Notes under the pieces: generated by a model | Told to the model about the DNA's origin: nothing | What the model saw: only the letters and a program-made list of their open reading frames with translations | Databases searched by the model: none | Part shown: positions 25,592-27,079 of the stretch, in pieces | Layout of the letters: the number at the start of each line of letters is the position of its first letter | How positions within the stretch are numbered: the first letter of the stretch is position 1 | Assembly: GCA_945898045.1 (NCBI GenBank) | Contig: CAMDGG010000003.1 | Span: forward strand, 10,529 to 74,528 | From: a bacterium UBP8_UBA817 | GTDB lineage: Bacteria; Margulisbacteria; Marinamargulisbacteria; SXXA01; SICP01 | Reading direction: 5' to 3' | DNA length: 64,000 nt | Position numbers and translations under genes: made by a program

Positions 25592-27079
25592 TTAGCCCGT
25601 AATCTTTTCCCGAAGGTGAATCTTACCTTCGGCTTCAAGTTTACCTGCTAGTCCTAAAACATAATCTTGTGCAGACTCAATATCTTGTTTGGCAATCCCC
25701 GTACCTTTAAGATCCAAGAACTGTTGAATCATTTCTTTCGCTGCTTTACTAAGGTTGATATCAATGCGCTGATAGGTTTCTTCTTCAACCGATACCAGGG
25801 CTGTTGCCAGAAGGTCTACATTGACCTCAGAGAGTACTAATTTCAACTCGTTATCATCGAGGTAGCGCAAGTCATCAAAAATCAAAATGTTACTTCTAAA
25901 GGCCTCGTAAGATTTAGGATCATTTTGACCCAAAACCGTAAGTAATTGTTTTTTGACCTCGCCAGAAACAAAAGAGAAAATACGTTGAAAGGCAGATTGT
26001 CCGCCCACCAAACACTCCAGCCAATTACGCATGCGGCCTTCCAATTTATCTAGAAATTCACGATTAACCAATCGCTGACTTAAAAGCGTAGACGTTACAA
26101 TGGCTTGATTTTTAAGGTCCAATTCTCCCAAAACTTTGGAGGCCAATTTGGGAGGTAAAAAAGAAATAATAACGGCAATATGTTCAATAGCAATGTTCTC
26201 TTTTTTTAAGAGGAAAATCAGATTGTCAACATTGGTTTCAGTAACAAAATCAAAATAAACTTTGATGGCAGGTGTATTTGAAATCGTAATATCCTGACCA
26301 CTTCCGCCACCCGTATTGCCATTGCTGGTAGGTAATTCAATATTAGGACTAACACTTACATTAGAACCGCCACCACTGGAATCAGACGACGCCCGACTAC
26401 TCTTATATAAAGAAAACTGTTTAAGCTTAAGTAAAATATAAATAATGAGGGAAATGACAAGTAAAACCAACGCTGTAAATTGCAAAATGTTTTGTATAGA
26501 AAAAATATCTTGAGAGGCATTAGCTGTGCTCCCTGGCGCAGCACCAGGAGCCGAGGCTGATTCGCGAGCAAATGGGCGATAGGTCAGGTTTACTACATCG
26601 CGGCTATCGCTCAGCCCTAAGACTTCCTTGATGACAGCGGTAGAGCGACCTGCCTGTCCACGTGGGAAATCGCGATTCACAATCACATCAATCACGATTT
26701 TGCGAACCTGAGGTTGCGCATAGCGTGTAATAGAATCAAATGGAAGCTGATTCAAATGTTGAGTAGGGGGGGCTAAATTGCGAATAACAGGATATCCCGG
26801 CAAAATATTCATTTTTTCACTAGAAGACTTAGCTGCTGCTTGCGGAATCGCTTTGACGGCCGATTGACGCGTATATTGCACCTCATATTGGGAGTCCGAT
26901 AGACTGACAGACGCACGGACGATAAAGTTGTTTTTTCCGAAGAGATTATCAAGCGCGGTCTGTGCCTTTTGTGCCAACAACCCTTCCATTAAAACTTGCT
27001 CACTCGTCACAGAAAAAGCGGGAGTGGTCACTAAAATAGCAAGCATAAAACCTAAAATATAGCGGGTCAAAATTCTCAT
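25592..27079 (-). CDS. Membrane protein fusing a FliF/YscJ-type periplasmic ring-building motif to FliG-like middle and C-terminal domains
   Basis: The order of elements is:
- A signal peptide or TM1 (ILGFMLAILVTTPAFSV).
- LLAQKAQTALDNLFGKNNFIVRASVSLSD ... VRKIVIDVIVNRDF...AVIKEVLGL..DVVNLTYRPF, which resembles the two halves of FliF RBM3.
- A TM helix (LQFTALVLLVISLIIYILL), then an S/G linker.
- EHIAVIISFLPPKLASKVLGEL, similar to the FliG_M EHPQ region.
- ILIFDDLRYLDDNELKLVLSEVNVDLLATAL...NLSKAAKEMI...IESAQDYVLGLAGKLEAEGKI, similar to FliG_C.

There is an ATGA overlap with the upstream gene. Confidence 0.6.
   Translation of the reverse strand: MRILTRYILGFMLAILVTTPAFSVTSEQVLMEGLLAQKAQTALDNLFGKNNFIVRASVSLSDSQYEVQYTRQSAVKAIPQAAAKSSSEKMNILPGYPVIRNLAPPTQHLNQLPFDSITRYAQPQVRKIVIDVIVNRDFPRGQAGRSTAVIKEVLGLSDSRDVVNLTYRPFARESASAPGAAPGSTANASQDIFSIQNILQFTALVLLVISLIIYILLKLKQFSLYKSSRASSDSSGGGSNVSVSPNIELPTSNGNTGGGSGQDITISNTPAIKVYFDFVTETNVDNLIFLLKKENIAIEHIAVIISFLPPKLASKVLGELDLKNQAIVTSTLLSQRLVNREFLDKLEGRMRNWLECLVGGQSAFQRIFSFVSGEVKKQLLTVLGQNDPKSYEAFRSNILIFDDLRYLDDNELKLVLSEVNVDLLATALVSVEEETYQRIDINLSKAAKEMIQQFLDLKGTGIAKQDIESAQDYVLGLAGKLEAEGKIHLREKITG

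What the first reader, a model, noticed from the sequence alone, without database searches (positions are those of the whole stretch)
25592..27079. Natural FliF-ring-motif / FliG fusion protein encoded away from any flagellar genes
One 495-aa protein combines elements that normally belong to two separate flagellar rotor proteins.

1. It starts with a signal peptide or TM1.
2. A periplasmic segment follows whose two halves resemble the FliF RBM3 ring-building motif: LAQKAQTALDNLFGKNNFIVRASVSLSD and VRKIVIDVIVNRDF...VVNLTYRPF. A short insert sits where the FliF beta-collar would be.
3. A TM helix and a Ser/Gly linker come next.
4. The rest looks like FliG middle domain (EHIAVIISFLPPKLASKVLGEL versus EHPQTIALILSxL...) and FliG C-terminal domain (ILIFDDLRYLDDNELKLVLSEV... 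versus MFxFEDLxxLDDRSIQxxLREV...).

In flagella, the FliF C-terminal peptide binds FliG_N non-covalently. Here both of those parts seem to be missing and are replaced by a covalent link. No fliM/N, flhA/B, motAB, flg or sct genes occur anywhere in the 64 kb. This could be the core of an uncharacterised membrane-ring machine derived from the MS-ring/C-ring interface.
Basis: partly seen in the sequence, partly recalled or inferred. Interest (0 to 1): 0.8.

Follow-up and report, generated by a model that had tools for sequence, protein, structure and literature searches.

The report
Natural FliF–FliG rotor fusion protein
One membrane protein joins the ring-building part of the flagellar MS-ring protein FliF to the torque-receiving part of FliG; across the Margulisbacteria it always sits beside a secreted TPR protein and usually beside MotA/MotB stator genes, so it looks like a stripped-down rotary motor core with no flagellar genes nearby.

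Summary
Window 25592-27079 (-) encodes a 495-aa protein with an N-terminal signal peptide or TM1, a periplasmic domain, a second TM helix, a Gly/Ser linker, and FliG_M plus FliG_C.

- **Domains.** FliG_M and FliG_C pass Pfam's thresholds. FliG_N is absent. The periplasmic domain is homologous to FliF RBM3 with a shortened collar (Foldseek 5e-9; HHalign 98.7%, E 2.6e-16). Plain Pfam and PDB sequence searches miss this match.
- **Window content.** No flagellar, T3SS or motAB gene occurs in the 64 kb.
- **Family.** The protein has about 50 clusters at 50% identity, from Margulisbacteria and unnamed MAGs. Its genes sit in conserved housekeeping synteny: hem genes, TPR, fusion, [motA-motB], rho.
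- **Partners.** A secreted TPR protein precedes the fusion in every locus. Flagellar-type motA-motB follow directly in 12 of 21 loci. In one genome without them there, motAB lie on another contig.
- **Rotor-stator interface.** FliG's FliM-binding EHPQR motif and its five torque-helix charges are replaced. MotA R90 and E98 change in step. The ion-path residues are kept.
- **Selection.** dN/dS is 0.06.

Best reading: a self-contained S-ring/FliG rotor driven by MotAB, with unknown output. I could not test whether these genomes also encode a full flagellum. The only natural FliF-FliG fusion I found described (Chlamydiaceae) has a different architecture.

The parts
25592..27079 (-). Whole gene for the 495-aa FliF(RBM3)-TM-FliG(MC) fusion protein.
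   Evidence: ORF; domains; dN/dS 0.057 against the Baikal-deep-G208 orthologue.
27011..27079 (-). Residues 1-23: N-terminal hydrophobic segment, either a signal peptide or TM1 (MRILTR... AFS/VT).
   Evidence: Kyte-Doolittle segment at 3-21, present in all 24 homologues. Basic residues precede it (sequence).
26555..27010 (-). Residues 24-175: periplasmic FliF RBM3-like ring-building domain, with fold alpha-beta-beta-[insert]-beta-beta-alpha-beta.
   Evidence: Model with pLDDT 75. Foldseek top 18 hits are the FliF S-ring. HHalign 98.7% to FliF 230-390. The profile hits the FliF YscJ_FliF_C region.
26735..26872 (-). Residues about 70-115: short, highly conserved insert at the beta-collar position (motif ILPGYPVIRNLAP...QLPFDS).
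   Evidence: Invariant or near-invariant P94 G95 Y96 P97 N101 L102 P113 F114 D115 S116. pLDDT below 50. Falls in the gapped region of the HHalign alignment.
26426..26497 (-). Residues 195-218: transmembrane helix 2, followed by basic residues (KLKQFSLYKSSR), which places the C-terminal half in the cytoplasm.
   Evidence: Hydrophobicity 2.74 at 198-216; model helix 195-228.
26270..26425 (-). Residues 219-270: disordered Ser/Gly-rich cytoplasmic linker containing a conserved short motif (VSVSPNIELP).
   Evidence: pLDDT below 50 at 226-270. P245, E248, P250 and G258 are at least 90% conserved.
26009..26269 (-). Residues 271-357: FliG middle domain. The EHPQR FliM-binding motif is not conserved.
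   Evidence: Pfam FliG_M 3.2e-7, above cut-off. Aligned to T. maritima FliG from its residue about 107. Motif columns.
25595..26008 (-). Residues 358-495: Gly-Gly hinge and FliG C-terminal (torque) domain. The five canonical torque-helix charges are replaced.
   Evidence: Pfam FliG_C 1.7e-18. Foldseek matches 1qc7 (TM 0.85-0.95, rmsd about 1 A) and 8ucs_H. E. coli K264/R281/D288/D289/R297 correspond to V/A/Q/F/A here.
27076..28206 (-). Gene for the conserved partner: a secreted 376-aa TPR protein with a possible SPOR-like C-terminal domain. Its stop overlaps the fusion gene's start by 4 nt.
   Evidence: Found upstream of the fusion in every locus examined. TPR_2 in 13/13 members, weak SPOR in 2/13. 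An N-terminal hydrophobic segment passes the scan threshold in 12 of 13. dN/dS 0.064.
25519..25591 (.). 73-bp gap between the fusion gene and convergent rho. In 12 related loci motA-motB occupy this position; here they are absent.
   Evidence: Synteny maps; sequence of the gap.

Best explanation
**What it is.** The gene encodes the rotor subunit of a reduced machine derived from the flagellar motor. Two hydrophobic segments place a FliF RBM3-type ring-building domain in the periplasm and FliG middle and C-terminal domains in the cytoplasm. A flexible linker replaces the usual non-covalent FliF C-terminus/FliG_N joint.

**Inferred mechanism.**
1. The RBM3 domains assemble into a ring of roughly 30-35 subunits, like the S-ring. 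This fixes a 1:1 ring of FliG_MC just under the membrane.
2. Peptidoglycan-anchored MotA5B2-type stators conduct ions. They push on the FliG_C helix and turn the ring.
3. The secreted TPR partner either scaffolds the stators or couples the ring to the envelope.
4. There is no FliG_N, no FliM-binding motif, and no RBM1/RBM2 that could hold an export gate. The machine therefore has no switch complex and no type III secretion core.

**Shown.** Domain identities, topology signals, family-wide conservation, gene linkage to the TPR gene and to motAB, correlated changes at the interface, and purifying selection.

**Inferred.** Ring formation, rotation, and the TPR protein's role.

**Unknown.** The output. 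For this window's organism, the location or existence of the stator genes is also unknown.
For: - **Domain identities.**
- **Family.** 24 full-length homologues at 35-96% identity share the same architecture. 139 clusters at 50% identity match the N-domain profile, 51 of them at E < 1e-30.
- **Gene linkage.** TPR plus fusion occur in every locus. motA-motB lie directly downstream in L004, L008-L011, L015-L017, L019-L021 and L025.
- **Same genome, separate contigs.** In assembly JBFWNS01 the fusion is on contig 6 (L013) and an isolated motAB pair is on contig 2 (L027).
- **Stator type.** MotA and MotB are flagellar-type. The best PDB matches are C. sporogenes MotA (7e-34) and MotB (1e-30). TolQ/ExbB models match only at about 1e-5.
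- **Ion path.** MotB D32 is kept in all module stators. MotA P173 and P222 are kept in all but one (L021 has T at P173).
- **Co-variation.**
  - Core-family FliG_C has Q/E and F/Y at D288/D289, and A/S/N/T/G at R281.
  - Its MotA has Q/S/H at R90, and in group A a non-acidic residue at E98.
  - The distant variant L023 keeps E288/E289 and R at K264, and its MotA keeps R90 and E98. The canonical pairs are quoted in PMC12505986.
- **Rosetta-stone hint.** Distant members carry a C-terminal TPR fused to the same chain, and their YscJ_FliF_C hits pass Pfam's cut-off.
- **Selection.** dN/dS is 0.057 for the fusion and 0.064 for the TPR gene, against 0.061 for hemL.
Against: - No stator gene lies in the window. 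8 of 21 loci lack motAB beside the fusion.
- The canonical electrostatic rotor-stator contacts are gone, so the engagement is inferred, not demonstrated.
- No oligomer was modelled.
- The periplasmic insert and the linker are modelled with low confidence.
- No output element (rod, shaft or cargo) was identified.
- The C-terminal TPR of the distant members is cytoplasmic, whereas the separate partner is secreted, so they may not be equivalent.
- The whole-genome flagellar content is unknown. Some Margulisbacteria carry flagellin and FlgV.
Confidence: 0.6

Rival explanations
1. It is an accessory or divergent paralogue working inside a genuine flagellum encoded elsewhere in these genomes, for example a second rotor ring or an assembly factor.
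For: All its parts come from flagellar proteins. The linked MotAB are flagellar-type. The distant variant locus L023 has flbD next to motA. Published surveys list flagellins and FlgV homologues in 'Margulisbacteria'. Whole genomes could not be searched.
Against: No flagellar gene was found in the 64-kb window, nor among the called-gene Pfam tables or conserved gene clusters of the related loci I inspected within 10 kb. L023 carries flbD as well as motAB. By contrast, a canonical FliG sits in a flgBC-fliEFGHIJ...fliMN cluster. The protein lacks RBM1/2, FliG_N, the EHPQR motif and the torque charges, so it could not replace FliF or FliG in a standard motor. Its MotA also lacks R90, and often E98.
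Confidence: 0.2
2. It is a static membrane ring or scaffold, or a sensor, that no longer uses MotAB. This would apply at least in lineages such as the window's, where motAB have left the locus.
For: 8 of 21 loci lack adjacent motAB. The torque-helix charges are lost. In some loci response-regulator genes lie nearby.
Against: The FliG_C helix pattern (AK..I.QF/YL.LKG) is equally conserved in loci without motAB, including the window. One such genome has motAB elsewhere. Strong purifying selection acts on the whole gene.
Confidence: 0.12
3. It is a decaying relic of a lost flagellum with no current function.
For: The domain content is reduced, the canonical motifs are lost, and motAB are absent from the locus in the window.
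Against: dN/dS is 0.057 with dS 0.87. The intact architecture is kept in about 50 clusters at 50% identity. Invariant family-specific motifs exist. The position in the operon with the TPR gene is conserved.
Confidence: 0.03
4. It is the counterpart of the Chlamydiaceae FliF-FliG fusion, working with a non-flagellar type III secretion system.
For: It is a natural FliF-FliG fusion, as described for Chlamydia (PMC4768692).
Against: According to that paper, the Chlamydia protein is about 330 aa, with RBM2 plus an unassigned RBM-like domain and only FliG_M. Here the domains are RBM3, FliG_M and FliG_C. No sct gene is in the window, and the linkage is to motAB and a TPR gene.
Confidence: 0.03

Closest known systems
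Flagellar MS-ring/C-ring core: FliF S-ring (RBM3 plus beta-collar) with FliG, driven by MotA5B2
   Same: The periplasmic domain is homologous to FliF RBM3. The cytoplasmic half is FliG_M plus FliG_C. Flagellar-type MotA/MotB are linked in relatives, with the ion-path residues kept.
   Different: It is a single polypeptide. It has no RBM1/RBM2, no FliG_N and no FliF C-terminal peptide. The collar is shortened, and the EHPQR motif and the five torque-helix charges are replaced. No export, rod, hook, filament or switch genes are nearby. It is always paired with a secreted TPR protein.
Chlamydiaceae natural FliF-FliG fusion (Bergeron 2016, PeerJ, PMC4768692)
   Same: It is a natural covalent fusion of a FliF-derived periplasmic part, a TM helix and a FliG-derived cytoplasmic part, in organisms not known to be flagellated.
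   Different: According to the paper, the Chlamydia protein is about 330 aa. It has RBM2 plus an unassigned RBM-like domain, lacks the SpoIIIAG-like RBM3 domain, and carries only FliG_M. Its proposed partner is the T3SS protein SctQ, not MotAB. I made no direct sequence comparison.
Engineered or spontaneous FliF-FliG fusions in Salmonella and Vibrio (e.g. PDB 8z4d/8z4g)
   Same: Covalent FliF-FliG chains assemble into S-rings. This shows the 1:1 fused geometry is workable.
   Different: Those constructs join full-length FliF to FliG, including RBM1/2 and FliG_N, and operate inside a complete flagellum.
Periplasmic TPR scaffolds of elaborate flagellar motors (PflA/PflB in Campylobacterota, FlcA in spirochaetes); from my own knowledge, not tested here
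   Same: They are secreted TPR proteins encoded with or acting on MotB-type stators.
   Different: No sequence relationship was tested. Here the TPR protein is an obligate neighbour of the rotor gene, not of a full motor.

Membership tests
FliG (flagellar motor switch protein; TIGR00207, Pfam FliG_N/M/C) | FliG_M and FliG_C domains | tested here: met
   PF14841 scores 30.9 bits (cut-off 25) and PF01706 scores 67.3 bits (cut-off 23.3). T. maritima FliG_MC matches at 8e-20. Foldseek matches 1lkv at 5.8e-9 and 1qc7 at TM 0.85-0.95.
FliG (flagellar motor switch protein; TIGR00207, Pfam FliG_N/M/C) | FliG_N domain that binds the FliF C-terminus | tested here: not met
   No PF14842 hit at E <= 1. 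The FliG-like part starts at T. maritima residue about 107. A TM helix and linker occupy that position.
FliG (flagellar motor switch protein; TIGR00207, Pfam FliG_N/M/C) | EHPQR motif for FliM binding | tested here: not met
   No EHPQ motif is present in any of 21 core-family sequences aligned to E. coli FliG, and R160 is replaced in all of them. The exact column assignment shifts by one residue between the two alignments.
FliG (flagellar motor switch protein; TIGR00207, Pfam FliG_N/M/C) | Conserved torque-helix charges (E. coli K264, R281, D288, D289, R297) | tested here: not met
   The window has V, A, Q, F, A. Family-wide the positions are V/A/I/S/T, A/S/N/T/G, Q/E, F/Y, and non-basic.
FliG (flagellar motor switch protein; TIGR00207, Pfam FliG_N/M/C) | Score above the NCBIfam equivalog cut-off | tested here: not met
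   TIGR00207 scores 62.2 bits against a cut-off of 226.7.
FliF (MS-ring protein; Pfam YscJ_FliF plus YscJ_FliF_C) | RBM3/S-ring domain (YscJ_FliF_C) | tested here: met
   Pfam does not detect it on this sequence. Foldseek gives 5e-9 to FliF S-ring structures. HHalign gives 98.7%, E 2.6e-16. The profile hits FliF in the YscJ_FliF_C region, and distant family members P0116, P0118 and P0137 pass the Pfam cut-off.
FliF (MS-ring protein; Pfam YscJ_FliF plus YscJ_FliF_C) | RBM1 and RBM2 (YscJ_FliF, the SctJ-like region that surrounds the export gate) | tested here: not met
   No PF01514 hit. The periplasmic region is only about 170 residues and is fully accounted for by the RBM3-like domain.
FliF (MS-ring protein; Pfam YscJ_FliF plus YscJ_FliF_C) | Two hydrophobic segments flanking the periplasmic region | tested here: met
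   Segments at 3-21 and 198-216, conserved in 24/24 members. Whether the first is cleaved is not testable here.
FliF (MS-ring protein; Pfam YscJ_FliF plus YscJ_FliF_C) | Assembly into a ring of about 33-34 subunits | not testable with these tools
   Only monomer models were available.
Chlamydiaceae FliF-FliG fusion | RBM2 plus an RBM-like periplasmic region, FliG_M only, about 330 aa | tested here: not met
   Judged on architecture alone, against the description in PMC4768692. Here the protein has RBM3 plus FliG_M plus FliG_C and is 495 aa. No direct sequence comparison was made.
Flagellar stator MotA/MotB (for the linked genes in relatives, not in the window) | MotA 4-TM protein with the P173/P222 ion path, and MotB with D32, a plug and an OmpA-like domain | tested here: met
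   PDB best hits are flagellar MotA and MotB. D32 is conserved in all, and P173/P222 in all but one sequence. Pfam finds MotA_ExbB, MotB_plug and OmpA.
Flagellar stator MotA/MotB (for the linked genes in relatives, not in the window) | MotA R90/E98 rotor-contact charges, and a score above the curated equivalog cut-offs | tested here: not met
   R90 becomes Q/S/H in all core-family stators. E98 is lost in group A. NCBIfam scores are 150-167 bits against cut-offs of 237-394.
Zorya anti-phage system (ZorAB, MotAB-like) | Long ZorA with a tail, plus ZorB and ZorC/D/E | tested here: not met
   With PADLOC, the fusion and the TPR protein have no hit. MotA matches ZorA at 2e-4 over the MotA core only. 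The ZorB hits reflect generic MotB similarity.

The most novel reading that the evidence does not exclude
The TPR protein, the FliF(RBM3)-FliG(MC) fusion and MotAB form a free-standing, ion-driven rotary machine in bacteria that have no flagellum. It would be a rotor ring and stator with no secretion apparatus, axial structure or switch. It is either a repurposed remnant or a window on a pre-flagellar rotor-stator stage. Its output could be directed at the cell envelope or at surface proteins: giant proteins (14,454 aa and 3,722 aa) flank distant variants of the module.
Probability: 0.4. Interest if true: 0.92.

Novelty: new variant of a known kind. Interest (0 to 1): 0.8.

Why it matters
How the flagellar motor was assembled from a secretion core, a FliG/MgtE-like rotor element and a Tol/Exb-like stator is an old open question. 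All characterised FliG-MotAB pairs sit inside complete flagella.

This family offers a natural minimal rotor. It has one polypeptide for the S-ring and the torque ring, a dedicated stator, and one periplasmic partner. It is conserved under selection across a phylum that is sister to the Cyanobacteria.

If it works on its own, three things follow:
- It would be the simplest FliG-based rotary device known.
- It would be a tractable object for cryo-EM and for reconstitution of torque generation. Its rotor-stator interface has exchanged salt bridges for polar and aromatic contacts.
- It would allow a test of whether the rotor and stator can function without type III secretion.

If it is instead part of an odd flagellum, it still shows an unrecognised accessory ring.

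Tried and rejected
- **Plain sequence searches for FliF.** Pfam and NCBIfam on the whole protein gave no YscJ_FliF or YscJ_FliF_C hit. A profile of the periplasmic domain against PDB sequences gave only chance-level hits. Plain HMM searches therefore miss the FliF relationship.
- **Collar motif idea.** I suspected the conserved LPGYP motif was the counterpart of a FliF collar motif recalled from Salmonella. The eight FliF sequences in hand show no such motif in that region, so I dropped the idea.
- **MgtE_N.** Only a weak hit (E 0.085). I reject it as the primary identity because the FliG_C and FliG_M matches are much stronger.
- **OsmC/Ohr-like fold.** These matches to the N-domain (E about 5e-3) are five orders of magnitude weaker than the FliF matches.
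- **Zorya defence.** Rejected.
- **motAB in the window.** Searched by tblastn with group A and group B stators: nothing.
- **motAB in the window's own lineage.** I looked through the MotA homologue list and followed two candidates. Both were isolated motAB pairs in relatives. One shares an assembly with a fusion locus, but neither could be tied to the window's organism.
- **Literature.** Searches on Margulisbacteria and flagella, natural FliF-FliG fusions, and non-flagellar FliG/MotA found only the Chlamydia case and engineered fusions. The Margulisbacteria genome paper (PMC6349859) does not mention flagella or motility at all.
- **Promoter and terminator scan.** Counts were within the shuffle expectation.
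Full report
**1. The observation**

The ORF at 25592-27079 (minus strand) is real, starts with ATG and encodes 495 aa.

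A hydrophobicity scan finds exactly two hydrophobic segments, at residues 3-21 and 198-216. All 24 full-length homologues show the same pattern. Basic residues before the first segment (MRILTR) and after the second (KLKQFSLYKSSR) fit a topology with residues about 24-190 in the periplasm and the C-terminal half in the cytoplasm.

**2. The cytoplasmic half is FliG_M plus FliG_C without FliG_N**

- Pfam gives FliG_M (286-354, 30.9 bits, cut-off 25) and FliG_C (383-489, 67.3 bits, cut-off 23.3). It gives no FliG_N.
- phmmer against PDB aligns residues 276-488 to T. maritima FliG_MC at 8e-20.
- The AlphaFold model (pLDDT 70) matches FliG_MC crystal and cryo-EM structures at about 6e-9. Its last domain superposes on 1qc7 with TM 0.85-0.95 and rmsd about 1 A, and on the FliG_C fragment of the MotAB-FliG complex 8ucs.
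- The protein is far below the FliG equivalog cut-off: 62 bits against 226.7.

**3. The periplasmic half is FliF RBM3**

Pfam, NCBIfam and a profile search of PDB sequences all miss this. Three more sensitive and independent tests agree.

- A model of residues 24-175 alone (pLDDT 75, above 90 in the core) has the fold alpha-beta-beta-[disordered insert]-beta-beta-alpha-beta. Its 18 best Foldseek hits are all FliF S-ring/RBM3 structures from Salmonella and Vibrio (5e-9 to 9e-7, TM about 0.5, 16-18% identity). PrgK (1.6e-3) and SpoIIIAG (3.4e-3) follow.
- A profile of the domain searched against 1.84 billion representative proteins finds 139 clusters. They include genuine FliF proteins matched exactly in their YscJ_FliF_C region. 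For example, P0100 matches at 235-395, where Pfam places YscJ_FliF_C at 247-393 (E 5e-8).
- HHalign against eight such FliF proteins gives 98.7% probability and E 2.6e-16, with query 6-147 aligned to FliF 230-390.

The insert at about 72-113 lies where the beta-collar sits. It is shorter than in FliF and carries the family's most conserved motif (ILPGYPVI+NLAP...LPFDS).

**4. The window**

Pfam scans of every ORF of at least 100 aa show housekeeping genes only: enolase, gyrA/B, relA, recJ, rho, hemB, dnaK/J, an Omp85 protein and others. There is no flagellar, T3SS or MotA/MotB domain.

tblastn with 22 MotA/MotB sequences from relatives is also negative.

**5. The family and its neighbours**

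*Source organisms.*
- The closest named relatives are Margulisbacteria MAGs. Baikal-deep-G208 is 91% identical, and others are Marinamargulisbacteria or unnamed MAGs.
- Sources call the protein 'hypothetical protein' or, rarely, 'FliG'.

*Synteny.*
- I compared 21 non-redundant loci. The gene order is hemA-hemC-hemD-hemB-hemL, TPR, fusion, [motA-motB], rho.
- The hem names are my reading of the sequences and of Pfam hits: ALAD and Aminotran_3.

*The TPR partner.*
- It has an N-terminal hydrophobic, signal-like segment (above threshold in 12 of 13 members). All 13 members have TPR repeats, and 2 of 13 give a weak SPOR hit.
- It precedes the fusion in every locus. In the window its stop codon overlaps the fusion's start by 4 nt.

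*The stator genes.*
- motA-motB follow the fusion directly in 12 loci.
- The window, its Baikal relative and six other lineages lack them there.
- In a 1.92-Mb contig with the same flanking synteny as the window, motA-motB sit between the fusion and rho. The window has only 73 bp at that position.
- In assembly JBFWNS01 the fusion lies on contig 6 without motAB. An isolated motAB pair of the same clade lies on contig 2 among housekeeping genes. A second isolated pair was seen in lake metagenomes.

*Control.* As a positive control for the method, a canonical FliG retrieved in the first search sits in a flgBC-fliEFGHIJ...fliLMN cluster.

**6. The stators and the interface**

The linked MotA and MotB are flagellar-type.
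- Their best PDB matches are C. sporogenes MotA (7e-34), PomA, and MotB/MotS (1e-30).
- The NCBIfam flagellar stator models match at 1e-44, against TolQ at 1e-5. All scores are well below the equivalog cut-offs.

I used E. coli MotA, MotB and FliG from NC_000913.3 as references.
- **Ion path.** MotB D32 is conserved in all module stators, and MotA P173/P222 in all but one (L021 has T at P173).
- **Stator contact residues.** MotA R90 is Q in group A and S or H in group B. E98 is G/V/L/A/P in group A and E in group B.
- **Rotor contact residues.** On the rotor side, every core-family member has:
  - V/A/I/S/T at K264;
  - A/S/N/T/G at R281;
  - Q or E at D288;
  - F or Y at D289;
  - a non-basic residue at R297.
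- **Co-variation.** The distant variant in L023 keeps R264, E288 and E289. Its MotA keeps R90 and E98. The canonical pairs R90/D288-D289 and E98/R281 are quoted in PMC12505986. Both sides of the contact have therefore changed together, which is what direct partners would do.
- **Other motifs.** The FliM-binding EHPQR motif is not conserved, while the Gly-Gly hinge is invariant.

**7. Selection**

Against the Baikal orthologue, dN/dS is 0.057 for the fusion and 0.064 for the TPR gene. It is 0.061 for hemL and 0.025 for rho, at dS of about 0.8-1.0. The gene is functional in a lineage that has no motAB beside it.

**8. Wider relatives**

- More distant members have Pfam YscJ_FliF_C above cut-off, plus FliG_M and FliG_C, and a C-terminal TPR fused on the same chain (P0116, P0118, P0137).
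- The P0116 locus (L023) reads: a 14,454-aa ORF, a 614-aa TPR protein, the fusion, an 800-aa unknown, FlbD, MotA, an OmpA-like protein, MotB.
- A variant named from Margulisbacteria GWD2_39_127 (L026) sits between a CheY-like receiver and a 225-aa FliG_C-only protein. A 3,722-aa Kelch-repeat protein lies two genes further downstream.

**9. Interpretation**

The best-supported reading is a rotor subunit that builds an S-ring-like periplasmic ring and, covalently at 1:1, a FliG_MC ring under the membrane. MotAB stators would turn it, and the secreted TPR protein would act as scaffold or coupler. It has no place for an export gate (no RBM1/2) and none for a switch complex (no FliG_N, no EHPQR).

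Ring formation, rotation and the role of the TPR protein are inferences. The output is unknown.

The rivals are listed with their weights:
- an accessory ring of a true flagellum encoded elsewhere;
- a static scaffold;
- a decaying relic;
- a Chlamydia-like T3SS partner.

The first of these cannot be excluded, because whole genomes could not be searched and some Margulisbacteria are reported to have flagellin and FlgV.

**10. Comparison with what is known**

- The only natural FliF-FliG fusion I found described is the Chlamydiaceae protein (PMC4768692). It has RBM2 plus an unassigned RBM-like domain and FliG_M only, and is discussed in relation to the T3SS.
- Engineered full-length FliF-FliG fusions form S-rings.
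- No paper in the held library describes an RBM3-TM-FliG_MC protein or its linkage to a TPR gene and motAB. That library is incomplete, so this is not proof of absence.

**11. Verdict**

I rate it a new variant of a known kind, with high interest (0.8).

I give about 0.4 probability that it is a free-standing rotary machine in non-flagellated bacteria.

Noticed in passing
L025 10001-11426; proteins P0187 and P0303: In one Margulisbacteria lineage motA and motB are fused in frame into a single 475-aa ORF (P0303, on a 426-kb contig). The 1.92-Mb contig has the same fusion with a later frameshift next to an A-run, probably a long-read error. A covalent MotA-MotB chain is hard to reconcile with the 5:2 stator stoichiometry.
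   Followed up: partly
L023 1-19771 (GCA_002412545.1, DHVG01000014.1): The distant variant of the module lies directly after a 14,454-aa ORF. It includes a 614-aa TPR protein, the fusion with its own C-terminal TPR, an 800-aa protein with no family hit, FlbD, MotA, and two OmpA/MotB-like genes.
   Followed up: partly
L026 9216-21650: A Riflemargulisbacteria-type variant (549 aa; named from GWD2_39_127). A CheY-like receiver is upstream and a separate 225-aa FliG_C-only protein is immediately downstream. A 197-aa protein follows, then a 3,722-aa Kelch/beta-propeller protein. An SLH-domain protein is encoded upstream on the other strand.
   Followed up: no
L003/L012 6999-8880: In MAG nzgw235 a KaiC/RecA-like ATPase and a receiver-domain-ATPase fusion lie directly upstream of the TPR-fusion pair. 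This may be a regulatory input.
   Followed up: no
window 26270-26425 (residues 219-270 of the fusion): The otherwise disordered Gly/Ser linker holds a short conserved motif (V/I-S/N-V-N/S-P-N-x-E-L/M-P; P245, E248 and P250 are at least 90% conserved). Its partner is unknown.
   Followed up: no
window 52041-58971: A 1,738-aa ORF with no Pfam hit overlaps the start of an Omp85/POTRA protein gene by 11 nt. The arrangement resembles a TamB/TamA-type pair, which would indicate a diderm envelope.
   Followed up: no
window 38148-39528: Two adjacent, overlapping thymidylate-kinase-family genes (231 and 230 aa), each matching PF02223 at about 1e-22.
   Followed up: no
window 16000-19800: The lowest-GC stretch of the window (0.359 at 16-18 kb). 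It holds a BRO-N domain protein, a KirBac-like inward-rectifier K+ channel (IRK_C plus Ion_trans_2) and two ORFs with no family hit. It may be an acquired island.
   Followed up: no
window 59457-59533 and 59506-60921: tRNA-Arg(CCT) overlaps the listed GTG start of a 471-aa ORF that has no Pfam hit, so the real start of that ORF must lie further downstream.
   Followed up: no
L019 (PBBE01000035.1): A contig carrying the complete TPR-fusion-motA-motB module is labelled 'Actinomycetota bacterium' in its record. All other carriers are Margulisbacteria or unnamed, so this is probably a binning or labelling error.
   Followed up: no
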